Part shown: positions 16,300 through 45,219 of the stretch, piece by piece
How positions within the stretch are numbered: the first letter of the stretch is position 1
Layout: each line of letters opens with the position of its first letter
DNA from: Diploschistes diacapsis
Lineage: Eukaryota
Direction: 5' to 3'
Length of the DNA: 54,306 nucleotides
Assembly (NCBI GenBank): GCA_023645945.1
Contig: JALAIB010000008.1
Span: 1 to 54,306, forward strand
The notes under the pieces: model-generated
The model's database searches: none
Seen by the model: the letters and a program-made list of their open reading frames with translations, nothing else
Told to the model about the DNA's origin: nothing
Made by a program: the position numbers and the translations under genes

Positions 16300-16757
16300 T
16301 ATTGACCGTCAGGCGCGGCGATCGGCGGGAGGTGCCCATTCATCTGTAGATCCTAGTCGAGTCTAGGTGGAAAACTCGTTAGCTGTCATCGTATGCCGGC
16401 TGCAAGGTCAATCTTGTATGGAGGTAGCGGGTGTTGACGTTGCTACCAAAACACCAGAAGCGAGCGTTGATTATCTGGTGCGGAGGCAGTAGCGAGGGGG
16501 TTTAGGCCCCCGGCTAAGAAAGCACGCGGGGAAACGGCCCGGGTGGATTTCCATGTAAGTTACTTGTACGGAGTATTACATTACACAACGCGAGCGATGC
16601 ACAAATGACGCGCTTAAGGATCCTTCCGCCAGCTTCGTATAACTAGGTAGATGTACACTGCTGAAGCCAAGGCTTTGAAACCATAAAGTTCTTTGTGCCA
16701 GTTGATAGGTCATAGCACCATGCGCAAAGCCCCATCCTGAGACGCTGAGCGCAGAGA

Positions 16758-25633: not shown

Positions 25634-28600
25634 TCACTGGATCAGCTTTTTGAGTATCACTTGGCACAACGAAACAAGCGTCTTCGCACCAACAACCTCC
25701 AAAGCGCTGATCTCAACGCTGAGCTCCGACCGTGCCCAGTTCCTCAGCTCCACCGCAACGAGGGAATCTATACCATAAGTCGTCAGGGGCCGAGAAGCTT
25801 CCAGAGGCTCGCTCATGCCCAAGCTCTTCATCAACACTCCGTTCACAAGTTCCACGCACGAGGCCAATAGCGTGGCCTGGTCGACCTGGGTCTCGCCCTT
25901 GCTCGCGCTCTTGAGCATCGCCAAGTGGCTGTCTTTAGCATCCATAGATCCACCAGCGCCACCAGCGCCGGGCCGTAGGGCGCTAAAACGATGGTGTGGC
26001 TGCAACGGCGATGCAGAGGTGAGCTCGCGGGGGATGCCCGTAATCAGCTGCGCCGTGCTCGCAGGGTTGATGGGCGACGAAGTTTGCTGAAGAATGCTGA
26101 AGCGCAAGATCTTGTGCAGAAGCGATTCGTTGATCATTCTCCATCCTTGCGCTTCAAGACGGCGGCTGAGGTTCTCGCGCTCGACAAAGTATCCCACATC
26201 TTCAATAACACCAAGGTTGACCGAGCAGGCCGGTAGGCCCATCGATTGCCGATAAGTGGCGAAGACGTCGAGGAAGACGTTGCCAGCGCTGTAGTTTGCC
26301 TGGGCCTTTTGCCCGACAACACCGCTAACACTGGAAAGTAGAGTGAAGAAGTCGAGCTTGTTGCCTAGTTCAAGGGCTACGTTGTGCAGGTTCCAGGTAC
26401 CCTTGATCTTGGGATCAATCGGTTCACGGAACTCCCGGGCTGTCATCCTTGGGAAAACCTTGTCCTATTGCAGCGTGTCAGATTAGCTTCCAGCTTCCAT
26501 GGCAGCAGATCGGTGCTAGACTCACTCTTAGCACCATGGCTCCCTGTATGATACCACCAATGGGCTTCGTAGCGCTCTTGAAGCACCTTCTAACATCATC
26601 CGCTTGTGTGATATCGCCACGAACAAGATCAACGTGCGTTCCCATTGCGTTCAGGTGGTAGATGACACCCTTACTGGCCTCGTCATCGTAGTTGCTGCGA
26701 GATAGCGCGACCATATATTTGGCACCATGGCGGGCGAGGTATATGGCCAAACTACCGCAGAGGCCCTTGAAACCTCCGGCAATGAGGTACGATACATCTG
26801 ACCGGAGCTTCATAACGGGAAGGGCGGGTCGAATCTGTAGTTCTCCATCAGCTATGTCTGAAGCCGTCCGTAGCAAATCAAGACTTACCGGTACATTGAC
26901 CATGCTTCTATCGCTGTCGGTGATAACAATCTTGCCCATGTGCTTACCATCACGCATATATCGGAATGCATCGACAACGTTTTCGAACCCGAAAGTCTTG
27001 CCAATGTAGAGGGGCTTGATGTGGCCTTCGGCAACGAGCTTGAATATTTGACCAAGTAGTCTGCAATAACAATTAGTATGGAAAGCTCCACCGTGAAGGA
27101 CAGACTTACCTCGCCATGGTAGCGCCAGAGACGCATTGCAAAGACAGATCGAAGGCACGATAAGAAGCGTTCCAGTTGAAAGGCTCCATTGACAAGCTGT
27201 TGCGGTCCAAGATGTCCTTCTTGCCAATCTCAATGAAGATACCGTTCTCAGCAACACAACGCCAAGTTTCGTGGAGCATGTCGCCGGCAAGTGAGTTCAG
27301 AATCACGTCTATCCCACGTCCGTTGGTAGCCTTCATCAGCTCAGGAGCGAATGCAACAGAGCGTGAGTTGAACATGCGCGATCGTGGAATTCCGTAGTTT
27401 TCTTCGAGGAACTTCCGCTTCTCTTCCGAGCCAACGGTGATGTAGATCTCTGCTCCAAGATATCTGGCTATCTGAATAGCTGCCATTCCGACACCACCCG
27501 CTGCCGAATGGATCAAGACGGTTTGTCCCTTTTGGAGATTGGCTAGGTCGAAGAAGCTGTATACTGCGGTGAGGAAACAAACGGGCAACGTGGTGGCTTC
27601 TTCGAATGTCATCCAGTTAGGGATACGGTGGACGCCGCCGGCGACGCTCTTGACTCTGTTGGCGAAGCAAGCACCATCCTTCCTCACCACAGCAACTCTG
27701 TCGCCGACTGATAGCCAGTCCACGCCGTTGCCGACTCGCGTGATGATACCGGCGCATTCCAGGCCGAGCACCTTCTCGTTACAGGGGACGAAGCCCATAG
27801 CGTGTGCAAGATCCTTGAAGTTCATTGCAGCGGCGTGGACTTCCACTTCGACGAATCCGTCTTCAACCACCTCATGGTCATTGACTTCACCGTAGCCCAA
27901 AGTGTCAAGCGTTCCAACACGCGCACTCATCAATCGTGCAGTCTTGGGGTTGCCGTGGAGTGCTTCGAGAACAGGTTCAGGGCCAAATGTTGCGTCCTTC
28001 TCCGATTGATTGACCAAGTCGTCGGGTAGGATACGGCTGATGTGAAGCATGCCACCTCGCTCGACAAACTCGTAGTCGTGCGGCTCCAAAGTGTCGACGG
28101 CCCTAATACGTTTGAGAACGGTGTGGATGGTGCTCAAACTCTGCGATGCGGTGTTGGACTCGAGGTCCAAACACGCCACCATGACTGTGGGGTCTTCAGA
28201 GTGAAGAGACCGCGCAACACCGTTGAACAGACTCTGTTCGGGAAGGGTGATGTTCATGTGGCCACCCTTGGTCACCCAGAGCAAGCGGCACTTCTTTGCA
28301 ACGAGCTGCTGCAGTGCTTCGAATTGGTTGTCGCGCAGGTTCGAAATCATGGGAGCGAACATTTCATCTAGGACAAGAACGGTGCTGTCCGCAGGGATGT
28401 CGTCGCACGGCAGGTCGTGCTCCACCATTTGCCAGCCACAGCTCGAGAGAAGATCCTTCGTGGCGTCCTGGGCTCCATCACGTGGTTGAAAGTGCACGAG
28501 ATGGACTTGGGGATCGGCTCCAAGACTCTCGTTAGCCTTCGCAGCAAGGGAACCAAAGTAGGCAATTTGAAGACCATCTTTGGAGTCTTTCGAGGCTTCG

Positions 28601-31600
28601 CTTGGAAGCACCTTCTCGGCGCCGGTAAGGGACAGCTCGCATGGCACCCTGCTCTCCGACCGATGCAGCACAAGCAGGAAACCGGTTTCAGAAAGCACCT
28701 GCCGCGCAGCTTGCATCACGCTCTGTACTGCTGATGAGAGGTCCGACACTTTAAGGATGACGAGGTCAAACTTCTCCTGAGCCTCTAAGCCGTCGAATGG
28801 CTTCTCGGAGTTGTTCTTACCAAACTCAATGCCGCCGTAGTTTCCATACTTTATACGAGCGTCGATCAGGTCGTTCTCTCCTTGCAAGGACAAGTAATAT
28901 TGGCAGTTGGCTCCCAATTCGGAAACATGCGGCCTGACCTGGTCAATCCACAGGCTCTCCACGCCCTCGACAAGGCTAGTTTCCATGATCCTCAGGCTTG
29001 GATTTTTGTGAGCAATAAGCTCGATGGCCTTGGCAGTCGTTGCTATCGTTCCAGTTTTGTCCAAGTCCGATGGGGCGGCAGCTTCAGTCAGGAGGATCTT
29101 GGAAAGGTGTTGCTGGTTAGCAAAGGTGATATCAGGCTGCCAGGTAACATGCAAATAAGTGTGTGCCAGGTGAGCGTCGTTCGTGGCGTCAAGGCTGTGG
29201 TATCGAAGGCCAGAGAGTCGCATTACCATCTCACCATTTTCGGGATTGAAGACGGACACGTTGGACTTGTAGCGCCTTGCGTCGTCGATTCTCCCAATCT
29301 TGGTGAACTCTGCATCGGCCACGGCCATGCCCTTTGCGGGCACCGCAGATTGAGCATGAATGGTAAGCTCGTCAATCATCGCGGGCAACATTAGATTGCC
29401 AACTGAGCTCCTATGACCGCTCCAGAGGGACGCGGCACCGGTCTGGAAGCAGGAATCGATGGTGACAGGGTGCATTGGGTAACGTGACTGGGGCAGAACG
29501 GACTCCGGAGCGTCAAAAGACACCAATGCCCTGTTTCGGCGCGATCCTGCGGTTGACTCGACCTCCAGTTGTCGACGGAAGCCAGGACCAAAACTATAGC
29601 CAACGTCGAGCATAGCTTTGTACCAGATAGCGGCTGGCGAGCTATGTTTCAGGGGCTCCAGATCGCTGGCCGTACCAACTTGCTTGGTCTGCTCGCCCAG
29701 GGAAATTAATCCCTGGCAGTGGTCGCTGATGATGTCCTTGACGATGGACGAGATTTTGAACTCGTGCCAGGATTCTTTGGTGCTAGTACAAGGCGTGAGG
29801 AGAAGGAGAACCTTGGATCCCTTGTCATCATCTTCGAGGGGGAGAGTCCTTGAGAAGGTGACGTTACGAAGCTTGTACATTACCTGGTTAACCTGAATAT
29901 CGTCCGCAAGGCGACCGGTGGCCTTGCTCTTTTGGTAAAGCGCTTCGACTGCCATGGCGACGTAGCCAGACCCCGGCATGATCACGCTGTCGCCGAGCTT
30001 GTGGTCACGAAGCCACGGCATCTCGGAAAGCTTGATGGTTTTCTTGAACTCCGGTTGTGTCCAAGGAGTTCCGAGAATCTTTGTGCCGATGAGATCGTGA
30101 TGAAGGAACTTGCGGAATCGCCAATCCTTGCTGGACTCGCTCTCGTGCCAGAACTTGGTGGAGTGATCCCAAGAGTAGTTTGGTAGATCGACGATGAACG
30201 CCGGTGGTGCAGACTCGCTGTCTTTGTTGACCTGAGTCAGATCTATTGGGTATCCGTTGGTGAAGAGCCTTCCTGCAAGTCCGAGTAGCGTCGGCAGAGC
30301 ATCCGAGCCTCTCTTCCATGCCGATGTATAATCAACCTGGACGGAAGCGGCCTTCTTGATCTGGTTGAGGGGACCTGCCAAAGCGTTGCTAGGGCCGAGT
30401 TCTATCAACAGATCAAGACCCTCGGGCTGGGTGATCATCTGCTTGACAGCTTGGTTGAACAGAACCGGCGACACCATGTTCTGAACCCAGTAGCTGGGGC
30501 CAAGAACTTTTTCGACCTTCTTGCCAATTGTAGATGAAAACATAGGTCGGCGATCCTCGGGCAAGGTTTCAGGCCACTCGACGTTGTTCTCAAGCAGGTT
30601 CTGGTACTCGTCCGAGATGACATGCATGTACCGAGAGTGATAAGCTGCCTCGACTTGGAGCAGCCTAGCGAAGTGGCCATCGCCCTTGATTGTCTTTTCG
30701 ACAACCTCCAACTCTGACCGTTGTCCGGAGAGAGTGACGCTCTCGGGACTGTTGATGCATGCGACCTCGACCGACGTCTTTTCCAAGTAGGGCCGAACTT
30801 TCTCCACGCCGAGACCAACCGCAAGCATTCCTACGCGCACATCATACCTGGCATTAGAGGTTGCCTTGCCGCGGTAGAAGGCGATCTTGATGGCTTGCGC
30901 GGGCGTCAAGGTGCCGGCTGCTACAGCAGCTGCAATCTCACCGGATGAGTGGCCGACCACTGCCTCGCAGGACACGCCAAACTTATTGAGAACGGCTAGC
31001 ATGGCGAGTTGAAGAGCGGTAACGAGAGGCTGAGAGAATTCTGGGAGCTTCAGTTGTTCTCCGCTGCGCGGTTTCGTGATCTCGTCGAGAATGTTCCATT
31101 TCGGTGCGTCCGGAAGGCTCTGAAGCACTTGGTCCAGATACTTGACTTGCTCAACGGCAGCTGGGAAAGTCTTGAGAAGGTCCCTGCCCATTTCTGGCCA
31201 CTGGGCACCCTGGCCGGTGAACACGAATCCAATCTTAGGAGGTTCGCTTTTTGTGCTGTCGGCGATCAAAGATTGCATGTCGAGAGTCTTGCTTGCTGCA
31301 ATCGTGTATCCGCGTCGGAAGAGCTTACTACGCTTCTCGGACAGAGTGTATGCCAGGTCGCGCAAGCTCACACTGACAGAAGGGTCCGAGAGGTGCCTGT
31401 CCAGCGCAGAGTACTGGGATTTGAGCGACTCGTCGTTGTTGGCCGAGAGAACGAGGAGGTACGGCCTTTCGACAGTCTCTTCGTCGGCGAAAAGATCGGC
31501 TTCCTCTGTGAGGTAAGAAGAGACGTGCCTGCTCACGCCAACAGCGGCGTCCACGATGATGTGAGAATTGGAGCCACCGTAACCGAAGGAGTTGACGCTT

Positions 31601-32958
31601 GCTCTGCGGAACGGCACAGCCGGCCATTTTGTGGTAGTCCTAGAAGGAGCGACTCGGAGCTTCTGGAAGTCAATGTTAGGGTTTGGGGTGATGAAAGTGG
31701 GATTGCCCGGGATGATGCCCTTCTCGAGCGAGAGGACGGCTTTGAGCAGTCCGGTGATACCTGCTGCGGGTTCGGAGTGGCCCAAGTTGCTCTTAACGGA
31801 TCCTATACGCAGCGGCTTGTCTGGCGAGAAGCTGTCGGAGAAAACCGAGGCGACTCCTTTGACTTCGATGGCGTCTCCAGCTCGTGTACCAGTGCCGTGG
31901 CACTCGACATAGCTAGTCAAAGACAGATCAGTGATACCGGCGTTGGCGTAGGCCTGTCGGATGGCTTGGGCTTGAGCGTCTGAATTTGGGCTGGCAATAC
32001 CCGCCGTCCAGCCGTCGCTGTTCGAAGCTGAGCCGCGAATGATTGCTCGTATCGGGTCGTTATCCTTGATAGCATCATCCAGGCGCTTGAGGAACACCAT
32101 GTTCACGGCCTCGGCTTTGATGTAGCCATCGGCCTTCGCGTCAAAGGTGTGACACTTTCCAGAAAGCGAAGCAGTGCCGTTGGCGCCCATATGGTGGTCC
32201 ATCACATGCTCGGGGCTAAGGTAAATGTTGCAACCAGCAACGATTGCTCCGCTGATCTCTCCGGTTTGAAGGTATCGTGAAGCAACATCCAAGCCGGTCA
32301 TGCTTCCAGAGCACGCAGTGTCAATAGTCATACTCGGGCCCTTGATGTTGAGAAAGTGACTGATTCTGTTGCTAAGCATAGCTCGACCGATCCCAACGGT
32401 ATTCGCAGCTGAGCGATCCTCGGGATCACGGGTCTGCATATCCGCGTAATCGCAAGCAAACGAGCCTACGAAACATCCCACGGGCGCTCTGTCGAGCTCC
32501 TCCAGCGTGACGCCTGCGTTCTCGAGACCTTCATAGACAACCTCGAGTAACTGTCGCTGCTGAGGGTCCATTGCAATAGCCTCTAGCTTCGACAACTTGA
32601 AGAACTGTGCATCTATGTCTCTAGGATCCACGTTCTGAAGGTACATTCCTCCCGGTGAGGCCATGGTCTTGTTGCGGAGGGATCCATCGTAGTGAGTATC
32701 GATGTTGTACCGTGATGTTGGAGGCCTATTCTTCGCAATGCCGCCCCTTTCGATGAACTTCCAGAACTGTGCGGGGGTGCTGCACTCGTCAGGGAGACGA
32801 CATGCCATACCAACCACTGCAATGGGCTGCTGGACATTTCCCCTCCTGACGTTCTGGGCTTGTTGAGGATTGTTGGCATGGTGAGCGCTGTTGACTCCAC
32901 CCGTATAGTGACCGTTAACGCCATTCATCCCGTTAGAGCCGTTGTGGTTGATTCCCAT
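25634..32958 (-). CDS. Highly reducing iterative type I polyketide synthase, KS-AT-DH-(pseudoMT)-ER-KR-ACP, ~2386 aa
   Basis: Exons 32958-27110, 27060-26889, 26834-26526 and 26464-25634 join in frame (7161 nt). KS: DTACSGS, ECHGTGT, KSNLGHSE. AT: GHSSGE, AAYHS. DH: DHKLGDSVIMP, HPVTIDSCFQ. ER: LIHSAAGGVG. KR: IAGGFKGLC, VLRD, QANYSAGN. ACP: GIDSLVAVELRNW. No TE or R domain. Confidence 0.97.
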
Positions 32959-33619
32959 TTTGAAAACCTAGAAACGAAAAAAAAGCAGTATACAAGGAGA
33001 GTAAAAGTTGGATCGGGGGATGCTTCAAGATATGACTTTATATGGCAGCCGCACCTTGCATTTTATATTGATCAGGGGAAGCTCCAGTAGACCCTCAGCA
33101 CCCTGAGCCTGTCTAACCAGTTGCTGCCACGCCGCACCAGCTCGTCTCACCCCGCGGCAGAGATGGCAAAATCTTTCCGAAACAGACTACTCATAATGAG
33201 GTTGTCTCGACTTCGAGGTGAGCTACGCTGCGCCGCTGGTCAGCATCTGTCTCAAACGTTCCAGTAATATAAGACATCCTGGCTGAAGGATGGTGGATAT
33301 GACTCAATACTACCTTTCATTGGCACCACTCAAAGCTGACCACCAAGGATAACGGGGTTGGCTATCGTCAAGAGGAAGTAAAGGCCGGCGGCTGATGGGG
33401 GCTTTCTCATAGCTTTGTCTATAAAAAGACAAGCTCCTGCCACGGTCACAGAAGGGCAGAACATCACTTCCGTTCAAAATCGATTCAGCCGGTGAACAAC
33501 AACACATTGTCTATCTTGGCTTGTTACTTCGTGCCTTATTAACTTACAAAAGGTGCTCCCTGCATACCTACCTCTCATCTCCCCAAAGCAGACTCAACGT
33601 CCAATCGCATTCCTCCGAA
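32959..33619. promoter_or_regulatory. Bidirectional promoter region between the PKS and the thiohydrolase, with candidate TATA boxes
   Basis: The divergent ATGs are ~660 bp apart. TATAAAA lies on the minus strand at 33061-33067 (toward the PKS) and TATAAAAA on the plus strand at 33420-33427 (toward the hydrolase). Confidence 0.55.
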
Positions 33620-34619
33620 ATGGCCGGTCGGGAAGACGTGGAATTCAAGACCATCGATGGTCTCGTTCTAAGGGGCGTCGTGTATCCCGCTAAAGAGCGA
33701 GGTCCCGGCGTTGTAATGAGTCCAGGGGTAAGGTTCACCAGCTCCTGATCCCGCGGCTCTGCTTTTTGAGGCTCACAATCGCCACGTGTAGTTCAACGGC
33801 GTCAAGGAAATGGTGGGACTGCCTAGCGCGGCCGCAGCCTTCCAGGATGCAGGCTTCACCGTTCTTGCGTATGACCACCGCACGACCGGTCTCAGTGATG
33901 GAGAGCCAAGGAACGATATCGACCCATTCAAGCAGATCGAGGATTACTCCGACGCCTTGACCTTTCTCTCGACTCACTCGATGGTGGATTCAGCCCGCAT
34001 GGGCATTTGGGGGATGTCACTGTCAGGCGCCGTGGCGCTGTGTACCGCATGTTTCGATCGCAGGGCACGCTTCGTGATCGCCGTGTGCCCCGCCACTCAG
34101 TATCAATACAACGAAAGGAAGCTCTCCAACGTGCTGTCCCGGATCGCCAAGGATCGCGAGTCTCAGGTCAAGGGGAACCCGCCATTCTACATTCCTATGC
34201 TCGACCAGGCGGGCGAGAACCCTGCAGGGTTCAACCTAGGGGTGGACAAAGATGCGGCTATGCGGATCCTGGCTGCTCAGGACGAAACGATCTCGACACG
34301 CCAGGCCTTGGCACCAAACCATGTCAACAGGACAACGATCCAGTCCTACAAGAAGCTTCTGATGTGGAGCCCTTCATACATGTGGAAGCAGCATCTGCTC
34401 ACTACTCCAGCCATGTTTGTTGTGCCGGAGCTGGACGAGTTAATCTCAGCGAAGGCGCAGCAGGAGTACTTTCAGCTCCTCCCAGGACCAAAGAAGATGC
34501 ACATCCAGAAGGGCCGTGGACATATGGACATCTTGGAGGGGGAAAGCTTGCCAGGTGTGATGCAGTTGCAGATTGACTTCATCCACGATTCTTTGGATGG
34601 CAAGGTCGGTCGACCATAG
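33620..34619 (+). CDS. Alpha/beta-hydrolase, PKS-partner thiohydrolase/thioesterase (Bref-TH/Fma-AT-like), 2 exons
   Basis: Spliced at intron 33728-33791: [19 protein letters not shown]...MSPG-FNGVKEM...[29 protein letters not shown]. Nucleophile WGMSLSG, acid ELDELI, His GRGHMD. Confidence 0.88.
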
Positions 34620-35580
34620 GTTCGGATATTTGGAATGGCATAGAGGCTTGCATTCCTTGGTTAGTTAGAGTTTACTAGTGATGTAGTAGCAACATAGAGA
34701 ATTGAATTTGAAGCTGTGGTGCTGATAACCGAGAGCACGTTTGCACGTTACAGTTGCAATTTGATACAACAGCCAATGTAGTGTAACTTGCTAGCAGATT
34801 ATCGTTTAGCGAGTTTTCTGCCACAGCACCTAGATCAGGCTAGATGTAGACGTAGTGTAATTAAACGGGTAACGCTGTTATTAATACTGCCTACTAGTAC
34901 TAGCGGTACCTTAGCTACTTACTAGTGCCATCCGCTTAAAAAACCCTTCTGCAACCTCTGAATCAGGAATTGCTGCACGTGCCGTGCTCAAAGCAGTAAT
35001 GCTATCTCGAAACCCTTCGGGACTCTCTTTTTCCGGCTCAGAGTTGCATTCGACAGCTTCTTGGTGCTCTCGGGACTTGAGCATCTTCCTTTGCCTCCCT
35101 GTTACTAGTTCCTGTAGCACCAAGAGCGATGAAATAACAAATGATCTTTACGTAATAGCGGGACGCAAAGCTGAAGAACGCTTCTTCCGAATTTGTTTCA
35201 GATATCGGGTTTCCTTCCAAAGCTATCGCTTTCGATCCTATCACTGGCCAACTCGTGTCTCTGCAGTTATAGGCTGAACATCTTACGTTGTTGAGCAAGG
35301 GTTCACAATGTAACGTGAGGGGGGCCACTTCGGCGCGGTGCGGTGATTACAGGCTTACAGCATGACCAACACAGTCACGGTCGGCCATTACTGGCCTTGT
35401 AAGGCAAACAGCAATTCGAGCATCGTGCTTCCCATGTGCGAGCTCGTGTCTTCCTACTCCAATTCAGCAAGCAGAGGGGCAACTCATTGCATCAGAGAAT
35501 GAGCAATTTTGACAAGCATCACCCATCCATAAGCCTCTGCTCACTTTCTTGTCGAGTCTCTCTTTCCTGCGGGCGACATC

Positions 35581-37510
35581 ATGTCTTTGCCAATCATTTT
35601 CTCTCCTCGCTCCAGCGTGATCATCCCGGGGTCGATACTCGAGTTTCCTGGGCTCACTGCTTTACCTGCCTTCCCGGAGGAGCCTGAGGATGAGTCCCCG
35701 CCGTCTCCGGCGTGCAAGCGGACGACAGCACAGATTGCCGTGATCATGATTTCTCTGAGCGCCTCTTGCTTCGTTGCTGCCCTTGATGTGACGATAATAG
35801 CAACTGCCTTACCCGCCATTTCCGAATACTTCCAGTCGCAGTCGGCATACACATGGGTCGGCACCGCATACATCTTGGCCAACACTGCCAGCACCCCTTC
35901 GTGGGGTAAGGTGTCAGACATATGGGGCCGGAAGCCCATCATGCTAATGTCGGTGGGCATCTTCCTCGCGGGCAGTCTCATGTGTGCTTTGGTGAACAGC
36001 ATGCCAGCTTTCATCGCCGGTCGTGCTGTTCAGGGCTTCGGTGCTGCCGGCCTGATCACGCTTGTCAACATCACTATTAGCGATCTGTTTTCTATGAGGG
36101 ATCGGGGCATGTACTTTGGGCTGATATCCATTGTATGGGCCTTCGCCAGCGGTGTGGGACCGGTGCTGGGTGGCTTGTTTACACAAAAACTTACGTGAGT
36201 ACTTCGATCCTCAAGAAGCTTACCGAGCTCTTGTACATTGGTTTGTGTGGCTGACACGCATTTTTCAGGTGGCGGTGGTGCTTTTACATCAACGGTACGT
36301 TCGGCCCTATGATTCAGGTTGAAGAGGTGTGTATCAGAGCACATTGCTAACTCGATGATAGTGCCGATCACCATAGCGGTCTTTTTGCTCCTGCTCTTCA
36401 CTCTAGAGCTTGAAACGCCGAAGATTCCAGTATGGGAAGGCTTGAAGGCAGTTGATTGGAGTGGCAGCGCCCTGATAGCCGGAGCGACTCTGATGCTTCT
36501 TCTGGGTCTCAATTTCGGCGGCGTCAATTATCCCTGGGACTCGGCCATGGTTCTCTGCCTCATTGTCTTTGGCGCTGTCGTTGGCGCCATCTTCGTCGTC
36601 AACGAGTGGAAACTTGCACGATACCCAATCATCCCACTGTACCTATTCCGCCAGCGGTACCGAATAGCCTCTTTCGCAGTATGCTTCTGTCACGGCTTCG
36701 TGTTCATGGGTGAGGCGTATTACATTCCGCTATATTTTCAGGCAGTACTAGGCACGAGTCCGCTGATCTCTGGCGTGTATCTCTTGCCATTCATACTGTC
36801 GTTGACGATAATGGCCGCATTTACGGGATTCTTCATACAAAAAACTGGCAATTATATTATTACAGTTTACGTCGGTTTAACTCTCTTAACCCTCGGGATA
36901 GGCCTGCTTATCGATCTTGACGTTGAAACAGATTGGGTGAAGATCATCCTTTTCCAGATCGTTGCCGGCATGGGTGTTGGTCTCAATTTCGAAGGGCCGC
37001 TACTTTCCATGCAGGCTACAATTGCGCTCGAAGACGTCGCGACCGCCACAGCCACCTTCAGCTTTGTCAGGTCCATTTCGACGGCCATATCTATCGTGAT
37101 TGGTGGAGTAGTCTTCCAGAATCAGATGGTCAACGAAGGGCCGCAGCTTGTGGCCGGCTTGGGCCCCGAGCTAGCCAGCCAGCTCGGCGGCGGGAACGCT
37201 GCTGCAAACATTGGAATAATCGGTACGCTAGCACCTGCGCAGCAGGTCATTGTCCGACAAGCGTTCTACAATTCCATAAGATCAATGTGGATCATGGTCA
37301 GCATCCTTCGTATTCTTTCGCTAGAAACTAGCTAATCTCGTACAGTATGTCGGAGTCGCGGCAGTCGGCCTGTTTGCCGGCGCCTTTATCGGCGTTCACA
37401 CCTTGAGCAAAGACCACAGAGCCGCGACTATCGGACTGCCGACCGGGAGCAAGAAGGAGAATAGGATCACGGAGGGTTATCCATTAGGCGGCTATACGGA
37501 GTATAGTTGA
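35581..37510 (+). CDS. MFS drug:H+ antiporter (DHA2, 14-TMS) efflux pump, 4 exons
   Basis: ALDVTIIATALPAI, WGKVSDIWGRK, GRAVQGFG, GPVLGG, micro-exon WRWCFYIN (~36269-36294), YYIPLYFQAV. The last exon YVGVAAVGLF...EYS* ends at 37510. Confidence 0.93.
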
Positions 37511-37650
37511 TGCCCGGTACGAGACATGCATTGGGGGTACATGGGTGGCATATTGGAGATTTAGCAAGCGAAATTGAATTTGGCGCTCTTTTGCTCAATT
37601 TTCAAATCATGTCCCGATTTCCCCCTGTTTAACCGATCCGACAACATTTG

Positions 37651-38634
37651 CTACCGTAGGCCGCGCGACTCGTTGAAGGGCTCGCACTTCCTCTCGCACC
37701 ACTCCCAAAACTTGGTAGCATGTCCCTCTTCGATTGCATTTGAAACGTCTTTCCTCGGACCACCCTCCATCACACGTCCCCATGGCATGACGTAGGCGCC
37801 GTTGCTGTCCGCATTGATTTCGGGCGACAGCCCGGCGTAGAGCATTGTATATGCGCCCATCTTTACGGGGTGGAGGCTGGGCCTCATGAACATCATGAGC
37901 AGCGAGGACTGGTGTCTCCACACCTCGGTGTCCAACTGGCCTGGATTCTGCGCCACGCTGATGATGCCGTCTCCGCCATAGCGCTTCGCACCCTCGACCG
38001 CCAGCAACCAGTTCCCTGCCTTGGAAGCCGCGTAATCCCGCGGCGGATTCTGCGTCCTGCCGGCGTCGGCGAGAGAGAGGTCGACCCCGTTCGCCGGTGC
38101 GTGTGTCTCGATGCTTAGGCTTGCTGTCCATACGATACGTACGCTGCCGGGATGAGAAGCTGCTGCTTCCTGCATGTGGCGAATCAGCTGCTGCGTCAGG
38201 AAGAGCGGGGCGACACAGTTCACGCCGATATGGCCCTCGAGATGCTGTTTCGTGCTGGTCCCAACCGGAACGCCTCCGACGCCCGCATTGTTCCACAGAA
38301 TATCGAGGCGTGATTCTTGAGCGGCGAAGGAAGCAGCCGTCGCCGAAATGGTCGACAGATCGTCGAGGTCGAGATGCAGATACTTCAAGGCACCAGGTTT
38401 GGGTGGGGTGGGTTTGCCAGCAACGACCGATTGGATTGCAGCTTTGGCACGCTCTTCGGATCTGCTCGCCATGTAAATTGTTGCACCCGTGGGGTACAGA
38501 ATTTTGATCAGCTCAAGCCCGATACCGGAGTTCCCGCCGGTCACGATGAAGACTTTACCATCCTGTCGAGGGACATCCTTCTCCGTAAAGTTAGGCGGGG
38601 GCGGGAACCATTGCGTCCAGAAACTGCGTAACAT
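37651..38634 (-). CDS. Short-chain dehydrogenase/reductase, intronless, cluster-associated
   Basis: 327 aa with TGGNSGIG, WNNAG, catalytic YAASK and QNPG. Confidence 0.92.
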   Translation of the reverse strand: MLRSFWTQWFPPPPNFTEKDVPRQDGKVFIVTGGNSGIGLELIKILYPTGATIYMASRSEERAKAAIQSVVAGKPTPPKPGALKYLHLDLDDLSTISATAASFAAQESRLDILWNNAGVGGVPVGTSTKQHLEGHIGVNCVAPLFLTQQLIRHMQEAAASHPGSVRIVWTASLSIETHAPANGVDLSLADAGRTQNPPRDYAASKAGNWLLAVEGAKRYGGDGIISVAQNPGQLDTEVWRHQSSLLMMFMRPSLHPVKMGAYTMLYAGLSPEINADSNGAYVMPWGRVMEGGPRKDVSNAIEEGHATKFWEWCERKCEPFNESRGLR

Positions 38635-39059
38635 TATGCAGGTAGTTCTGAGAAGTATGTTCTAAGCACTGAATTTAGAGAGGAGGAGTTTGCACTGAAC
38701 TGGCAAGACCTGGTAAATTTCAATTTGCACTCGCACTTGAGGGACAATAAAACAATGGTCTGGGTATGAGACTTGGATGGGGACAAACCCTCGGGGATGC
38801 TTGGACGACTCGTCATAAGCCTCCCTGAATCATGGTAGCAGCCTGAGGAACTGATGGGAACACCACACGGCTGGTTAACCTGTGTATGTAGTGGATCAGC
38901 CGTCAAGGTTCAGCCCGCAACTGCACTCCTAGAGGCCCCTTAGACTCAGCTCCGTTGTCCAAATTAGGCGTTGCGATTCAGGAAACGGAAACGGAGAACG
39001 AGAAGCCTGGAAGCCTGGAGGTTGCAAAGGGAGCCTAGACAATTTCTTGTACCCATACA

Positions 39060-39121
39060 TTGTGTTGTGTTGTGTTGTGCGTTGTACGTTGTACGTTGTA
39101 CGTTGTACGCTGTATGTTGTA
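39060..39121. repeat. Compound tandem repeat: (TTGTG)4 followed by (CGTTGTA)4 and 2 degenerate units
   Basis: Read directly from the sequence. Confidence 0.93.
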
Positions 39122-39562
39122 GCGTTGCAATAAAGTAGTAGTCCCCTTTAGCCAACTTTAACTAGTGTCATCGTCCAACTGTTAGATCGCCCCGCTTCCT
39201 ACTTCTGGGGCCAAAGGCAAAAAGCAGGAATTAATGAGCTAAATAAGCGGCACGAGCTAACAGTTGGGGTAACGATAGAGGTTGCAGTAGATACTTACTA
39301 ACTAGGTGGCCCGATCCAATAAGGATAATCCTCATGACTGCAAGCACTCACCCTTCAGCTATTCCCAAGATTGAATAGATTTGAACGCTCAGATACCATC
39401 AAGGTTATACTAGGTTTCAGGATACCTGTGTTAGAGTACAATCTATATATACATTCTAAACTGACACTGTAGTGAGTTTTAATCCCCGGGTCAGTCACAC
39501 ATTTTGACCGCTTTGTTAATCAACAGAAATCCTTCCGGAACAAGACCGCAGACCCGAGCCGG

Positions 39563-42500
39563 CTACATCACGCTCAGCCAGATTGTGCTACAGAGTCCTA
39601 CATTTATCATCAAATGGTGATAAAGAGCCCAGAGACCGCCGAATACGTATTTCGGCGCATGGGCTATCCAAATGAAAGGCTCCCTCCTCAGCACCGTACA
39701 CGCAACCATAAACGCCAGGAGACTGAACGCTGTAAGAAGCGTTTGCAGTGCCAGATAATCAAAAAGAGGCCTTCCTGGCTGGTCCACCAAAGTACCGTCA
39801 GGGCACGGTTTCGGACTTCGCACCGCTTTCGTATTGCCCTTCCTGCTCGTCAGGTCGGTTGTACCCTTTGGCGCGCTGCCTAAAGCCTCTTGCTTGATCT
39901 CGACCCATCGAAGGAGAAACCTAAGGCCGTTGCAAGACCACCAGATGGGTCCGGCCCAATTTGTAGCAAGAACTTGGAGTGGTACCCCTACAGCATTGTA
40001 ACCTACAATGCCGTTATATCCATTGGTGAGGTCGATTGATGAAATGGCGTTGCTGTTGCCAAAGACAAAGTACGAGTTTTGAGCGAGAAGGAAAACCAGG
40101 CCGGAAGTTTGCAGTGGATGCAGCCCAAGTGGTACAGATTCTGCATACGTGGTCAGCTGTATTGCCATCACTTGGATGTGCTGAATCAGCACAACAGGCG
40201 AGGATTATTACGTAGAGCGTCAAGCTGGAATTTCAGAATAGAGAATAGCGGAATATTATGGGCTCGAGATTGAGTCAGAAGATACAAACTCAAAAGCTCC
40301 AGGATACCGCTTAGAGTGTCTGCAATCTCACATCAGTCTACGAGCTTGGAAGTAACGAGATACGCACCTTCTCTTGTCCGACGACCTTTTCGCTTCGACT
40401 GCAGCACAAAGTAAGCCAGTACCGCGAGAATACCTGAAAAAAGGGCTCTAGCGATTGGCGTCGCATCTGATTCCTCGGCTTGCTGCAGCAGCCAATGTGG
40501 GGAAAAGGCTACTAGCTGAGGGCTGTCTCGAGCGGTTGTGATGAATTTAAAGATCAGTGCCGTCAAGCACAGAGCAGTAGCAGCAAGCGGAGCGGCAAGT
40601 GTTGCTTTCGGTCCACCGTCATCCGCAATGCCCTTGGACAATCGGACGGCTGTACCAAAGTATGTTGCAGCAATACCGACCCAGAGTATGGAAGGAAACC
40701 TGTTGAAACATTCGTGAACGAGGTCCGGTATCCTGTACTGCGTGTCGCCAGCTTGATTCCAACACTGGGTCGCAAATTGCAAGAGGGCTGGCAGCACCGA
40801 AGACAGTATGGACGCATTCCTCGTTATGCTTGTACACAATCAGCATCGTACCAAGTCCAAGAATAACAGCAGAAATTAGTTTATGCGCGACAATCCTTAC
40901 CTTCTGCAGCCCAAGCAGGTCAGCCACGCTAGCGAGCTCCAGTACCAGAAATGATGCTCCTCTTGAACATAGCGACTGCTGAACATTGTCGAGCTATATA
41001 AGGCCGAAAGTGTTCCCAAAGCCAGGCGATCGGTGGTCCATTGTAGTCTCAGAGGACTGTATGCAAGAATTAGGAGGATGACGGCGGCGCACACGCCAAG
41101 GATGCCATATGAGAGTAGGGGAATGCTGAGGTTGCCAGCCGTTACACCCATGACCCGTTGCGCATGCTTACAGAACTGAAAGACGTCAGCCGCCGATATC
41201 ATAGCTTTTTCGAATAAAGAGAATCGAATGTACGCACAGCGGTTACGACCAAGCGTACATCTTCCAAACTGGTATTTGAACTTTTCGCAATCTCTAGCCG
41301 CTCCTCAACTTGTCGCCAGGAGCAGGAAAGTTCGGTTCTGCCCAAATGATCTTCCTTACAATCAAGGTTGGGCAACACAGAGTCCGGATTGTTGGTCTTG
41401 AACGCATCCATTAATTGCATTCCGTTGCCCTGCAGAAGCTGCAGATGGTGGGAGCCCTTTCCCCAAAGGGGTAAGAAATCCTCAATGAATACACCCATAT
41501 TGTTGGAGGGGATTCCAAAACCTAGGAGGCCAGCCAGAGTAGGCACAATATCGGACTGGTCCACAACCTTGTAGTAATCGAATCCGTTACCTCCGTGAGC
41601 TGTGGGTGATTCCAGCCCCTTGGAGATCGACTTGAGGTGAGGTGACATGAAAACTAGCGCTGGAGAGGATTCTCCCGGCGAAGAGCCGCCGTGGTTACCC
41701 TTCTCGTTCATCCCATGATCGCCGACTATCACAAATAGGGTAGATTTCAAGTGCGGCTCCTGCTCCATTGCGCCGTAGATCTGCCGTACGATGCCATCCA
41801 TTTGGCGCTGCTTTGGTAACATATATGGACTATGGCCTCTTTCAGTCTCAGTCTATAAGTTGGATTCTCGGGAGCGCTTCACCTGTTCGGTCCGCCCACA
41901 TGACCGACATGATCCATGCCGGGGAAATGCAGCACGAACGCGCTCCAATCGTCATTGCGCAGTTCTTCTGGGATATGTCTTGTAACATTGTTGTCGACTT
42001 GAATGAAGTCCTGTAAAGATATACGGTTCAGCTTCCGTTGCGTCCATAACTTGGGGGTAGAGAATACCGGCACGTAGAAGGCATGAACACCTTCAGAGCG
42101 GTCAAAGACATCGGGGAATAGCTGCAGCCATGTGTTCTCCCCGTAGAATATCATTTTCCCAGTCTCCTTCTCTTTTAGCCGTCTCAGCCAGGTATCTTCC
42201 GTAAGGGCGGATGCAGCCTCCGAGTCTGCAAGATTGAGTATGACATCGAGAAAGGAAGGGTTTGAGCCGGTCGTCATGCTCTTGATGCGAGAGATCGTGA
42301 GACTGGGAGGGCTGGCATGGGCAGTGAAGGGAATAGCCTCCCCAGAACGTATCAGACTCAAGTCAAGTCAGCTACTCAACAGGCTGGGCCAGCAGGGAAC
42401 GGGTCTCTTACCTCTGTACATAGCTGAACCCAGATTTATTCGAGTACACAAAATCGCTATTGCAAATTAGAAGATCGGTATGAAGCTATGCGTCGGCAGC

Positions 42501-42721
42501 AAGGAATACCTCCGCATCGCATCAACCACCATGAATATAACTTTGTCGAAAGGAGCAGTCTCCGACCCGCCTCCATTGGGAATACGTTGGTCATCTTCGA
42601 GCCTCGCAAGATCCGGAAGTACAGGCTTGTAGCGAAAGAAACCTGCCGCAAACACAAGCACAGAGAATGGGATCAAAGTGTTCGCAAGAAATAAAAAGCT
42701 GTTCTGTTTGAAGTGACCCAT
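39563..42721 (-). CDS. GPI ethanolamine-phosphate transferase 2 (GPI7/PIG-G) homologue, 9 exons; probably a cluster-specific paralogue
   Basis: Hand-spliced in frame: N-terminal TM VLVFAAGFFRYKP, KVIFMVVDAMR-SDF, PPSLTISRIKSMTTGSNPSFLD, LHFPGMDHVGHVGGP, VGDHGMNEKGNHGGSS, QSDIVPTLA, SRYVQEEHHFWYW, LTQSRAHNIPLF, GNSNAISSIDLTNGYNG, IAHAPKY. This is an alkaline-phosphatase-fold domain plus a multi-TM C-terminus. Confidence 0.9.
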
Positions 42722-44724
42722 TTTTGCACCACATACACGCAAAGCTTAGATGGAGCGTGGTATGATCGACTGGGCGTCAAACTTCTCAGAGTCTATCTTC
42801 CATACTCTAAGCAAGAGACGTGTGTCAAAGTATATTCCTCGAAACCGTCCCTTACTTGAGGCGCCAGCAACACACCAGCTACCGTATATACAGATCTGTT
42901 ATGGCGTATGTTTCTCCGACTGATTGAGAGCGTCCACCAACTCGCTTCCAAATGCCGATGGAACCTTCGTCCTGCACCACTCTTCCTGCCAGGGCCGAAG
43001 ATGACAACTCTCAGACAGACAATGAATATGAGACATCAGCTTCCCTTCCGTTATTGGTTCGCCAATGCTGATAGGATTGAAAGGTTCTTCTCTAATGCCA
43101 ACAATCAATCATAAACCAATTTGTTCATGATTCTATGTTTGTATGCGGCTGATGCGAGTTGCATTAGGTGGAGTTCCTGGTTGGGGGCTTATGGAATGAA
43201 TGGATCCTTGACGGGAACGTGGCTGCATACCAGGTAACAGGTTTGGACCAGCATCGTTTTGCGTTTTGGCGACTTTTCAGCCTTTGCGTGAGTGAGTCTT
43301 GAAACAGCCACCTTACCTGCCACCACTCTGGAATGGCTCTAGCTGGCAGTGGTAGTTGCTCGCGTGCTCAAGTACGAGGTTGAGAAACAGCCCTCCATGG
43401 GTGGGATTCAGCTTTTCGTACGCTTGACCTAGATCGGAAAGCTTAGGTAACTGACTGATGCAAGCACCCGGGTTGTTACTCCGGGTTACGTTACCCCGTG
43501 GCTATTTTGCTTTGACGCCACAGACCGACTGTGGCTAGTAAGTGTTTTGTTACCGTACAAGCTTGTAATTTCTTTTTTCTTTCTCACCGCCTCCATGGTC
43601 CTTGGCCCCACGGGGCATAATCACATGTTTCTAGCATTAAAAAACAAACCCACGTGCGGCTGAGCCATCCGGTAGGGCTGCACACCCCTTCCAGCTCATA
43701 CAGATAGACCCTCCCCGGTAAAAGTCCGGTACTTCAGGTACAACTCAATCACACAAAACGTGCATACAATAATTGCGAAACTAGCTGGAGGTAGTTGTTT
43801 CGCAGCCTAACGGCATGCTTGCTTGCTCACGTACACAGCAGCAATGCCACACCTACTCCCTCAAGCCGTTGATGGCTAGAATGCGACCACAGCCAGCTAT
43901 GTCAAAAAGCCACTAACTTCGGTTACAGAATCGGAGTCACCGAACGGGGACGGGACACAACTCACTCACGGTGCAACTCTGACGGCTTCTGCCCTCCCGT
44001 CATCCGTTGCAGTTGTATTCAATGGCTTCGGCGCTCATTATAAAGTATATCATGGAGTAGAAAGAAAGGGCATGCACCGTCGGCTGGCGCCATCTTCAGC
44101 ATCAAAGTAACCGCAGCTGCTTAGTTTTCGGCAACACGGCCCGGTCCGAGCTTGTCTCCCCTCTCCCCTCTGTAACCATGATATCGAGGCACTACTGTTC
44201 TGAATCCTACGCAGTCCTTGTCTGGATTTGCGCAGTGAAGGGTCGTGTCAAATAAGTATTACCTACCGATATAATTCTGTGAATCGAAATCCTTCGGTAT
44301 TGGGTCAGAACATATCATTTTAACACAAAGAATGAAAGGCGGGAAGAGCAAGACTTGCTGTGTTCCAAATTCGGTCTAGCCTGGCCAACGGTATGAACGA
44401 TAAGTTTGATAACGAATCTTAGTAGATCTGAACAACACCTACATTTGTCGTCTGCCTGCTTAAGATCACGAGAGCTCAATAGGGCGAAGGTCTTGAGGGA
44501 ATGATTAGGAGAGCCTGTTAGAATGTTAAAATGACACTACTCAAAACGCCAGACCCCTCGGACGGGGAAATTAAACACAGTTCAGTCAAGCATCATTGAA
44601 TTCCCGGCTGCGTTAAATGTATAAAGACGTGGAGGTGGCATGACTAATAGTCAGCCAGCCAACGGGACAGACGTGATGAGAAACCATGAATATAGTGTTA
44701 TCCTCCTATAGAATCTGCAATTCG

Positions 44725-45219
44725 CTATACAATCTCAATGGTCATGAGAAAGCCAACAACAAAACAGACGCAAGCCGGAAGATCGACAGCCAGCGTCCTT
44801 GCCGCGTGCATCCGTAGCCACTTCTCCATTGATAGAGTGCTGTTTCCCTTCGGCCGGTCCCCTCGAATGTCATCAAGTAGCTTCAGCGCAGTCGGTCCCC
44901 ACAGGAAGTATCCCAGGCTGAACGCGGTACCCGCCCAGTACCACCGATCGGCGCCTCTTACCAAAAGGCTCGAAGAGCTCGTGAAGATGTTGGCCGTTCC
45001 GGAGATGAATGATGTTGAAAATCCCGCGACGAGGATGCAAACAGCGTTTTGCATCCAGCGAGCAAACCACGAGGGAAGTAAGTTGTTTGCACGCTCTCTA
45101 TACTGTGGTTCAATCCAGCAATTGAGGAAGATGTATTCGTCATGCGCAAAGACCAGATTGGTGGTTGAAGAGATCACGGGTATGAGACGAAGGAGTTTGA
45201 GGCTAACGAAAGCGTCCAT
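44725..45219 (-). CDS. Small integral membrane protein (DUF1772/anthrone-oxygenase-like appearance)
   Basis: 164-aa intronless ORF with about 4 hydrophobic segments, WYWAGTAFS and C-terminal WLRMHAARTLAVDLPA. The family is a pattern-level guess. Confidence 0.65.
   Translation of the reverse strand: MDAFVSLKLLRLIPVISSTTNLVFAHDEYIFLNCWIEPQYRERANNLLPSWFARWMQNAVCILVAGFSTSFISGTANIFTSSSSLLVRGADRWYWAGTAFSLGYFLWGPTALKLLDDIRGDRPKGNSTLSMEKWLRMHAARTLAVDLPACVCFVVGFLMTIEIV

What the first reader, a model, noticed from the sequence alone, without database searches (positions are those of the whole stretch)
25634..42721. Candidate cluster for a phosphoethanolamine/phosphocholine-decorated macrolide (HR-PKS + trans thiohydrolase + MFS + SDR + GPI-EtNP transferase)
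Seen: five contiguous, apparently intact genes - an HR-PKS with no release domain, a divergent alpha/beta hydrolase, a DHA2 exporter, an SDR and a GPI7/PIG-G homologue. Known (from memory, please verify): HR-PKS plus stand-alone thioesterase pairs make fungal macrolactones (brefeldin A Bref-PKS/Bref-TH; phaeospelide ApmlA/B). The akml (Aspergillus kawachii) and ciml (Colletotrichum incanum) clusters use GPI-ethanolamine-phosphate-transferase homologues to put phospho-aminoalcohol groups on 22-24-membered macrolides, the chemistry seen in eushearilide and JBIR-19/20. Inference: this is a further, probably uncharacterised member of that rare class, making a zwitterionic phospholipid-mimicking macrolide.
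Basis: partly seen in the sequence, partly recalled or inferred. Interest (0 to 1): 0.88.

Follow-up and report, generated by a model that had tools for sequence, protein, structure and literature searches.

The report
Phospho-macrolide gene cluster, ciml/akml type
This fungal locus is an intact five-gene cluster of the already described family that makes large-ring lactones carrying a phospholipid-like head group, so it is a new member of a known kind, not a new kind.

Summary
Window 25634-42721 carries five contiguous, intact genes: a highly reducing PKS ending in ACP with no release domain, a stand-alone alpha/beta hydrolase, an MFS transporter, an SDR and a GPI7/PIG-G-like ethanolamine-phosphate transferase (EPT).

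- The PKS is 56% identical to CimlA and to the PKS cluster encoded beside AkmlB relatives.
- The hydrolase is 52% identical to CimlB and to the AkmlB cluster representative.
- The EPT is not the housekeeping GPI7. It lies in a 16-row clade (SH-aLRT 100, long stem) with CimlC and other PKS-linked paralogues, and it shares their altered active-site motif.
- Holding it with a lichen housekeeping GPI7 is rejected (p-AU 6e-33).
- PKS, hydrolase and EPT trees all put the window with the same set of linked clusters.

Differences from akml/ciml/ptml: no P450 anywhere in the 54 kb, an SDR instead, and an early-branching position. The closest EPT is from the lichen fungus Lasallia pustulata (59%).

The product, its ring size, the head group, expression, and a second canonical GPI7 in this genome could not be tested.

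Verdict: new member of a known kind, moderate interest.

The parts
25634..32958 (-). Highly reducing polyketide synthase, 2392 aa, 3 exons (32958-27146, 27060-26526, 26464-25634). Domains KS-AT-DH-(sdrA-like structural domain)-ER-KR-ACP, with no C-methyltransferase and no release domain.
   Evidence: Pfam. Gene model guided by P0242. Catalytic motifs. Full-length identity 61% to P0242 and 55.7% to CimlA P0507. KS-AT tree.
33620..34619 (+). Stand-alone alpha/beta-hydrolase (thiohydrolase / trans-acting release enzyme), 311 aa, 2 exons (33620-33727, 33792-34619). Transcribed divergently from the PKS.
   Evidence: Pfam Hydrolase_4. Splice site read from the DNA. Identity 52% to CimlB P0198 and 67% to P. 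argentinense P0125. AkmlB lies in the 90% cluster of P0181, which is 52% identical. Tree. Best PDB matches 7d78 at 5.9e-53 and 6lzh GrgF at 5e-41.
35581..37510 (+). MFS transporter, about 579 aa, 4 exons (35581-36194, 36269-36294, 36362-37296, 37346-37510). The last intron is my best guess.
   Evidence: Pfam MFS_1 on both large exons, TRI12 weak. A 26-nt micro-exon encodes WRWCFYIN. Last intron chosen among GT-AG candidates. An MFS is reported in akml, ciml and ptml (PMC8788809 section 16).
37651..38634 (-). Short-chain dehydrogenase/reductase, 327 aa, single exon, lying between the MFS and the EPT.
   Evidence: Pfam adh_short 4.5e-22. Motifs read. Atlas neighbours are all ascomycete SDR clusters. 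Membership of the cluster rests on position only.
39563..42721 (-). GPI7/PIG-G-like ethanolamine-phosphate transferase paralogue of the CimlC clade, 895 aa, 9 exons (42721-42510, 42456-42412, 42356-42068, 42010-41883, 41829-41238, 41175-40901, 40828-40368, 40319-40212, 40140-39563).
   Evidence: Pfam PIGO_PIGG on three exons. Gene model. Active-site motif comparison. Trees. AU test. Identity 59% to Lasallia P0001, 36% to CimlC P0366 and 42.5% to housekeeping P0007.

Best explanation
This is a biosynthetic gene cluster of the akml/ciml/ptml family.

Shown: all five genes are present and intact, and the three core genes group with the named Ciml/Akml proteins.

Inferred by analogy with that family:
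1. The iterative HR-PKS builds a long, unbranched, partly reduced chain on its ACP. It has no C-methyltransferase and no release domain.
2. The separate Ser-Asp-His hydrolase takes the chain off the ACP, probably by macrolactonisation.
3. The EPT paralogue is a multi-pass membrane protein with an alkaline-phosphatase-type domain and a Thr nucleophile in PSLT. It transfers a phospho-aminoalcohol head group to a ring hydroxyl. The head group would be phosphoethanolamine taken from a phospholipid donor, as GPI7 does, or phosphocholine.
4. The SDR performs a redox tailoring step in place of the P450 found in the known clusters.
5. The MFS exports the product.
For: PKS:
- Of the best 120 of 5617 hits, the 17 best named ones (54-61%) include CimlA (56%) and the A. 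lentulus/A. terreus PKS cluster P0250 (56%). After these, identity drops to 51% or less.
- P0250's members are encoded next to hydrolases of the 90% cluster that holds Swiss-Prot AkmlB.
- In the KS-AT tree of 48 rows, the window sits in a 20-row clade (SH-aLRT 95) with CimlA, P0250 and all 4 PKSs that I had marked as EPT-linked. The other 28 rows lie outside.

Hydrolase:
- In a 39-row tree it falls in the 23-row side (99) with CimlB, AkmlB and the 3 EPT-linked hydrolases. It is nearest to P. argentinense and P. mononematosum.

EPT:
- 110 of 120 best hits carry the canonical P-T-[IV]-T-[ML]-P-[RK] / TTGS[IV]PSF motif, 3 do not cover it and 7 are divergent. The window shares its PSLTISRIK / GSNPSF form with 3 of those 7.
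- In a 69-row tree, the window plus 15 divergent proteins, including CimlC, form one clade (100, stem 0.62). In a 25-row tree the clade has 9 rows (100, stem 0.78).
- Holding the window and Lasallia with the Pycnora housekeeping GPI7 costs 313.6 lnL, p-AU 6e-33.

Linkage in other fungi:
- The divergent EPT shares a contig with the PKS and/or hydrolase of this clade in six species.
  - C. incanum: CimlA and CimlB on a 22.5-kb contig.
  - P. pulvis: locus tags 001950/001951.
  - P. argentinense: locus tags 004568/004571, with two genes between, as in the window.
  - C. eremochloae: 236-kb contig.
  - H. cercidicola.
  - Hypoxylon sp. NC1633.
- In P. mononematosum the canonical GPI7 (P0069) is on a different contig from the PKS and hydrolase.

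Literature: passages and section 16 of PMC8788809.
Against: - No product, expression or enzyme data. No RNA run could be listed, which is not evidence either way.
- No P450 in the whole window, whereas akml and ptml have one (PMC8788809 Table 2).
- The SDR is placed in the cluster by position only.
- The whole genome is not held, so I could not show that a second, canonical GPI7 exists in this organism.
- The closest EPT relative (Lasallia, 59%) has no PKS or hydrolase of this clade among the best-120 lists. Linkage is therefore not shown for the nearest relative.
- Pairwise identity does not separate the groups: 36% to CimlC against 42.5% to a housekeeping GPI7. The assignment rests on the trees and on shared derived motifs.
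- The trees are 'quick' searches with SH-aLRT support only, and long branches are present.
- The AU group was named after the tree had been seen.
- For Mb-size contigs, 'same contig' is inferred from equal contig length and does not prove adjacency.
Confidence: 0.72

Rival explanations
1. The EPT is the organism's ordinary housekeeping GPI7. It adds ethanolamine phosphate to the second mannose of GPI anchors and merely lies beside an unrelated HR-PKS + hydrolase cluster.
For: Pfam sees only the generic PIGO_PIGG family. Overall identity to housekeeping proteins (about 40-42%) is as high as to most paralogues. The gene sits at the edge of the cluster, followed by 4 kb without any domain hit. 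No second GPI7 could be looked for.
Against: It lies in the clade with CimlC at 100 support in two trees. The AU test gives p 6e-33. The derived motif is shared with PKS-linked paralogues and absent from 110 of the 117 hits that cover it, including every lichen housekeeping sequence whose sequence covers the motif. The PKS and hydrolase beside it belong to exactly the clades that travel with such paralogues.
Confidence: 0.05
2. The cluster is real and of this family, but the chemistry differs from the phospho-macrolide model. Either the hydrolase releases a linear acid instead of a lactone, or this early-branching EPT uses another acceptor or head group. The product would then not be a phosphoethanolamine or phosphocholine macrolide.
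For: UniRef calls the homologues 'thiohydrolase', and relatives in the PDB have varied chemistry (7d78, GrgF). The window's EPT lies outside the sub-clade that holds CimlC, in a basal position. The cluster has an SDR and no P450.
Against: 52% identity to both CimlB and the AkmlB cluster representative, with the catalytic triad kept. All metal and nucleophile motifs of the EPT are kept. Three-gene co-phylogeny with the characterised clusters.
Confidence: 0.15
3. The cluster is silent or decaying and makes nothing in this organism.
For: According to PMC8788809 (passage), akml and ciml were reported as unexpressed in culture. No shared promoter word was found among the four upstream regions, and no pathway-specific regulator was seen in the window.
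Against: All five reading frames are open after splicing with GT-AG introns, and all catalytic motifs are kept.
Confidence: 0.08

Closest known systems
ciml cluster of Colletotrichum incanum (CimlA HR-PKS, CimlB thiohydrolase, CimlC GPI-EPT-like protein; Morishita et al. 2020 as cited in PMC8788809; UniRef names seen)
   Same: Same three core genes, each in the same clade as the window's gene: PKS 55.7%, hydrolase 52%, EPT 36% identical. Same PKS domain order without a methyltransferase or release domain. An MFS is present.
   Different: The window's EPT keeps TTGS.PSF and MDHVGH where CimlC has TQGT.QSF and LDSLAH, and it branches earlier. The window has an SDR and no P450.
akml cluster of Aspergillus luchuensis (= A. 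kawachii)
   Same: AkmlB lies in the 90% cluster of P0181, which is 52% identical to the window's hydrolase. The PKS cluster encoded beside members of that hydrolase cluster (P0250) is 56% identical to the window's PKS.
   Different: I did not retrieve AkmlA or AkmlC themselves. akml has a P450, akmlD (PMC8788809 Table 2). The window has none.
ptml (preussolide) cluster of Preussia typharum
   Same: Same gene kinds: PKS, thioesterase, GPI-EPT and MFS. Its products are 24-membered phosphoethanolamine macrolides, and they are actually produced in culture (PMC8788809).
   Different: ptml also has a P450 and an NTF2-like gene. No sequences were available to me for comparison.
Housekeeping GPI7 / LAS21 / PIG-G (GPI ethanolamine phosphate transferase 2)
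   Same: Same Pfam architecture, length and metal/nucleophile motifs, at about 40-42% identity. The paralogue clade is nested inside the Pezizomycotina GPI7 tree.
   Different: The active-site surroundings are altered: PSLTISR against PT[IV]TMPR, FYGENTW against MYGDDTW, CWNQAGDTQY against RWNQTGQK. It lies in a separate clade and is linked to a PKS.
Other fungal HR-PKS + trans-acting hydrolase pairs (macrolide and related clusters without an EPT)
   Same: PKS-hydrolase pairs share a contig in many fungi among the hits, such as Xylaria, Daldinia, Bathelium and A. sclerotiicarbonarius. PMC11519919 (passage) speaks of hundreds of such putative clusters.
   Different: In the trees those PKSs and hydrolases fall outside the clades that hold the window, CimlA/B and AkmlB.

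Membership tests
GPI-EPT-containing fungal macrolide clusters (akml/ciml/ptml) | HR-PKS without a release domain, in the clade of CimlA/AkmlA | tested here: met
   Pfam finds no TE or R domain, and ACP is the last domain. 55.7% identity to CimlA over the full length. 20-row clade at 95 with CimlA and P0250 in a 48-row tree.
GPI-EPT-containing fungal macrolide clusters (akml/ciml/ptml) | Separately encoded alpha/beta-hydrolase of the CimlB/AkmlB type with a Ser-Asp-His triad | tested here: met
   GMSLSG, PELDEL and GRGHMD align with CimlB. 23-row side at 99 with CimlB and AkmlB in a 39-row tree.
GPI-EPT-containing fungal macrolide clusters (akml/ciml/ptml) | GPI-EPT homologue that is a dedicated paralogue (CimlC clade), encoded in the cluster | tested here: met
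   Clade at 100 with CimlC. AU p 6e-33 against a housekeeping placement. The gene lies 930 bp from the SDR and 2 kb from the MFS (parts list).
GPI-EPT-containing fungal macrolide clusters (akml/ciml/ptml) | Cytochrome P450 (akmlD, ptmlD). This is an accessory gene and not the feature that defines the family. | tested here: not met
   No p450 Pfam hit among the ORFs scanned. No F-x-x-G-x-R-x-C-x-G heme motif in any of the six frames of the window.
GPI-EPT-containing fungal macrolide clusters (akml/ciml/ptml) | MFS transporter in the cluster | tested here: met
   MFS_1 on both large exons. Reported for akml, ciml and ptml in PMC8788809 section 16.
GPI-EPT-containing fungal macrolide clusters (akml/ciml/ptml) | Product is a macrolactone carrying phosphoethanolamine or phosphocholine | not testable with these tools
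   Needs expression and LC-MS/NMR.
Housekeeping GPI7/PIG-G | Canonical active-site surroundings, P-T-[IV]-T-[ML]-P-[RK]-x-K-x-x-TTGS | tested here: not met
   The window has PSLTISRIKSMTTGSNPSF. 110 of the 117 hits that cover the site are canonical.
Housekeeping GPI7/PIG-G | Groups with housekeeping orthologues of related taxa | tested here: not met
Housekeeping GPI7/PIG-G | Single copy in the genome, acting on GPI | not testable with these tools
   No whole genome is held.

The most novel reading that the evidence does not exclude
The window and Lasallia proteins are the earliest-branching and least-diverged members of the CimlC clade. They could represent an intermediate between housekeeping GPI7 and the macrolide-decorating enzymes. 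Together with a cluster that lacks a P450 and carries an SDR, this lineage (window, Lasallia, P. argentinense, P. chrysogenum type) could make a structurally new phospholipid-like polyketide. The enzyme might even still act on GPI as well. This would show how an ER glycolipid-anchor enzyme was recruited into secondary metabolism, and would place that step in or near lichen-forming fungi.
Probability: 0.2. Interest if true: 0.65.

Novelty: new member of a known kind. Interest (0 to 1): 0.45.

Why it matters
Phosphoethanolamine and phosphocholine macrolides (eushearilide, JBIR-19/20, preussolides, and the akml and ciml products) are rare antifungal lipid mimics. PMC8788809 lists only a few producers.

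An intact cluster from a lineage far from the characterised ones would widen the known set of scaffolds. It shares at most 61% identity in any core gene, has an SDR in place of the P450, and its nearest EPT relative is in a lichen fungus. It would also give an early-branching enzyme for asking how a GPI-anchor transferase changed its acceptor.

It does not open a new class of system.

Tried and rejected
- Whole genome: none is held. I made no copy-number check for GPI7 and no genome-wide synteny check.
- RNA evidence: no RNA holder was listed for 33000-42800.
- Context of relatives: a metagenome scan with the hydrolase gave 1 locus of 1262 bases (L001, 63%) out of 78 pattern matches, too short for context.
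- Earlier findings of this scan: nothing by place, sequence or words.
- Shared promoter words: among the four upstream regions, no 8- to 10-mer occurs in all four. The count shared by three (3 at k=8) is below the background mean.
- P450 or methyltransferase: none found.
- PDB by sequence: no match for EPT exon 41238-41828. Only weak generic matches for the SDR.
- AU test on the 69-row alignment: not finished after 858 s. It was replaced by the 25-row test.
- Morishita et al. 2020 (Org Lett 22:5876): not held. What I say about it comes from its citations in PMC8788809, PMC11519919 and PMC11316297, and from my recall of its abstract.
- First EPT models: these were wrong at two places, a GC donor and a retained 57-nt in-frame intron. 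They were corrected. The 69-row and 25-row trees used the model that still held the 19 extra residues.
- Organism: not determined.
Full report
**What is in the sequence**

The window is fungal: it has short GT-AG introns and no prokaryotic features. No whole genome is held for it. Stop-to-stop ORFs and Pfam scans show five genes between 25634 and 42721.

I built gene models with homologues as guides.
- The PKS has 3 exons and 2392 aa.
- The hydrolase has 2 exons and 311 aa.
- The MFS has 4 exons and about 579 aa, including a 26-nt micro-exon that encodes WRWCFYIN.
- The SDR has one exon and 327 aa.
- The EPT has 9 exons and 895 aa, including a 45-nt micro-exon and a 57-nt in-frame intron that I first missed.

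All frames are open.

The PKS reads KS-AT-DH-(sdrA-like structural domain)-ER-KR-ACP, with no methyltransferase and no release domain. Its catalytic motifs align with CimlA. The hydrolase keeps the Ser/Asp/His motifs of CimlB. The EPT keeps the alkaline-phosphatase-type metal ligands and a Thr nucleophile.

**Surroundings**

To the left lie ordinary genes: eIF4E, an AMP-binding enzyme, an SDR, a Y-family polymerase, a Gpr1/Fun34 protein and a Memo-like protein ending at 24437. To the right of the EPT there are 4 kb with no Pfam hit in 25 ORFs of 55 aa or more. Beyond these lie a family-2 glycosyltransferase, a GMC oxidoreductase and a TPR protein. No P450 domain or heme motif exists anywhere in the window.

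**Is the EPT the housekeeping GPI7 or a dedicated paralogue?**

This was the crux.

A search with exon 41202-41852 returned 192 proteins, of which the best 120 were listed. Around the nucleophile, 110 of the 120 carry the near-invariant housekeeping sequence. Three do not cover the site and seven are divergent. The window's form, PSLTISRIK...GSNPSF, is shared with three of the seven: Lasallia pustulata P0001, Penicillium argentinense P0120 and an unnamed Logan protein P0034. The other four are Hypoxylon and Biscogniauxia proteins with a second divergent form.

A profile of the three window-type proteins, searched against 1.84 billion representatives, brought in further divergent sequences. Look-ups of names showed that one of them, P0366, is 'GPI ethanolamine phosphate transferase-like protein cimlC' of Colletotrichum incanum.

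Three tree-based results followed.
- In a 69-row tree, the window and all 15 divergent proteins form one clade with SH-aLRT 100 on a long stem (0.62). This clade is nested among Pezizomycotina housekeeping GPI7. The lichen housekeeping proteins (Pycnora, Agyrium, Peltula) lie elsewhere.
- A 25-row tree gives the same clade (9 rows, 100, stem 0.78).
- Forcing the window and Lasallia to join the Pycnora housekeeping protein costs 313.6 log-likelihood units, p-AU 6e-33.

Caveats apply. These are quick searches, long branches are present, and the AU group was chosen after the tree was seen. Pairwise identity alone does not discriminate: 59% to Lasallia, 36% to CimlC and 42.5% to a housekeeping protein.

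**The PKS and the hydrolase tell the same story**

The PKS search listed the best 120 of 5617 hits. It shows a top group at 54-61% identity:
- P. mononematosum, C. tofieldiae, three Hypoxylon species and Oculimacula;
- C. incanum, which is CimlA by the name found;
- the A. lentulus/A. terreus cluster P0250;
- P. pulvis, C. eremochloae and M. brunneum, among others.

After this group identity falls to 51% or less.

The hydrolase search listed the best 120 of 350 hits. It includes 'Thiohydrolase cimlB' (P0198). One search showed that Swiss-Prot 'Thiohydrolase akmlB' sits in the 90% cluster of P0181. The A. terreus and A. lentulus members of that cluster are encoded next to members of the PKS cluster P0250.

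The trees agree.
- The KS-AT tree of 48 rows puts the window in a 20-row clade (95) with CimlA, P0250 and all four PKSs marked as EPT-linked. The other 28 rows lie outside.
- The hydrolase tree of 39 rows puts the window on the 23-row side (99) with CimlB, AkmlB and the EPT-linked hydrolases. Its nearest named neighbours are P. argentinense and P. mononematosum.

In all three trees the window falls in the clade that holds the Ciml/Akml proteins. In the PKS and hydrolase trees its nearest named neighbours are Penicillium proteins. In the PKS and EPT trees it branches early.

**Linkage elsewhere**

The divergent EPT shares a contig with the PKS and/or hydrolase of this clade in six species:
- C. 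incanum: CimlA and CimlB on a 22.5-kb contig;
- P. pulvis: adjacent locus tags 001950 and 001951, with the PKS on the same contig;
- C. eremochloae: all three genes on a 236-kb contig;
- H. cercidicola;
- Hypoxylon sp. NC1633;
- P. argentinense: hydrolase 004568 and EPT 004571.

In P. argentinense two genes lie between the hydrolase and the EPT, the same number as the MFS and SDR in the window. I could not see what those two genes are. For large contigs, 'same contig' is inferred from equal contig length. In P. mononematosum the canonical GPI7 lies on a different contig from the PKS and hydrolase.

**Literature**

PMC8788809 (passages, section 16 in full, Table 2 as a passage) describes akml, ciml and ptml as HR-PKS + thioesterase + GPI-EPT homologue + P450 + MFS. 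It states that the EPT forms the phosphate ester on a macrolide hydroxyl. It lists eushearilide, JBIR-19/20 and the akml and ciml products as the only such compounds.

PMC11519919 (passages) says homology mining gave hundreds of putative HR-PKS + thioesterase macrolide clusters. PMC11316297 (passages) shows that antiSMASH already links clusters to 'AKML'.

The original paper (Morishita et al. 2020) is not held. I recall its abstract as speaking of a 'characteristic family' of such clusters and of phosphoethanolamine or phosphocholine products. That is recall, not a call. Searches for cimlC, akmlC, GPI-EPT, eushearilide and preussolide found no paper on a lichen or SDR-containing member.

**Mechanism**

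Shown: gene content, intactness, catalytic motifs, and clade membership of the three core genes.

Inferred by analogy:
- chain building by the PKS;
- release, probably by lactonisation, by the hydrolase. Its best solved relatives by sequence are 7d78 and GrgF. I recall 7d78 as a lactone-forming thioesterase, and that is recall only;
- transfer of a phospho-aminoalcohol from a phospholipid donor to a ring hydroxyl by the membrane-bound EPT;
- a redox step by the SDR;
- export by the MFS.

Ring size, the position of the head group and the choice of head group cannot be read from the sequence.

**Open points**

- No expression data.
- No genome in which to look for a second GPI7.
- The SDR is assigned to the cluster by position only.
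- The nearest EPT relative (Lasallia) shows no PKS or hydrolase of this clade in the lists I could see.
- The organism is not identified.

**Verdict**

The cluster is a new member of a family described in 2020. It has two variations, an SDR instead of a P450 and an early-branching lineage. Interest is moderate.

Noticed in passing
window 42456-42412, 42067-42011 and 36269-36294: Gene-structure oddities that automatic annotation is likely to miss. The EPT has a 45-nt micro-exon and a 57-nt in-frame, stop-free intron. The MFS has a 26-nt micro-exon that encodes WRWCFYIN.
   Followed up: yes
proteins P0001 and P0541 (Lasallia pustulata): Both deposited Lasallia models lack the stretch LIRSG..PFTAHA..P just before the nucleophile, and P0541 lacks further blocks. 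These are probably annotation errors at small exons and not real deletions.
   Followed up: partly
EPT trees: The whole CimlC-type clade sits next to Dothideomycete housekeeping GPI7 (96 and 99 support). Yet it holds proteins from Sordariomycetes, Eurotiomycetes, Dothideomycetes and a lichen fungus. This fits one old duplication followed by patchy loss or by transfer of the cluster. The root and direction were not tested.
   Followed up: no
protein P0366 (CimlC), alignment: CimlC reads LDSLAH where housekeeping GPI7 and the window have DH[IV]GH. The characterised enzyme has therefore changed one of the conserved His positions, while the window's enzyme has not.
   Followed up: no
window 42722-46742: Four kilobases to the right of the EPT have no Pfam hit in any of 25 ORFs of 55 aa or more. 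The two overlapping 177-186-aa ORFs at 44696-45258 are unexplained.
   Followed up: partly
window 333-4091 and 14278-16308: Long open frames of 1252 aa (plus strand) and 676 aa (minus strand) have no Pfam family.
   Followed up: no
window 7953-8936 (minus) and 12691-13569 (plus): An AMP-binding enzyme fragment and a second SDR lie 12-18 kb to the left of the PKS, separated from it by housekeeping genes (polymerase, Memo). I did not treat them as part of the cluster.
   Followed up: no
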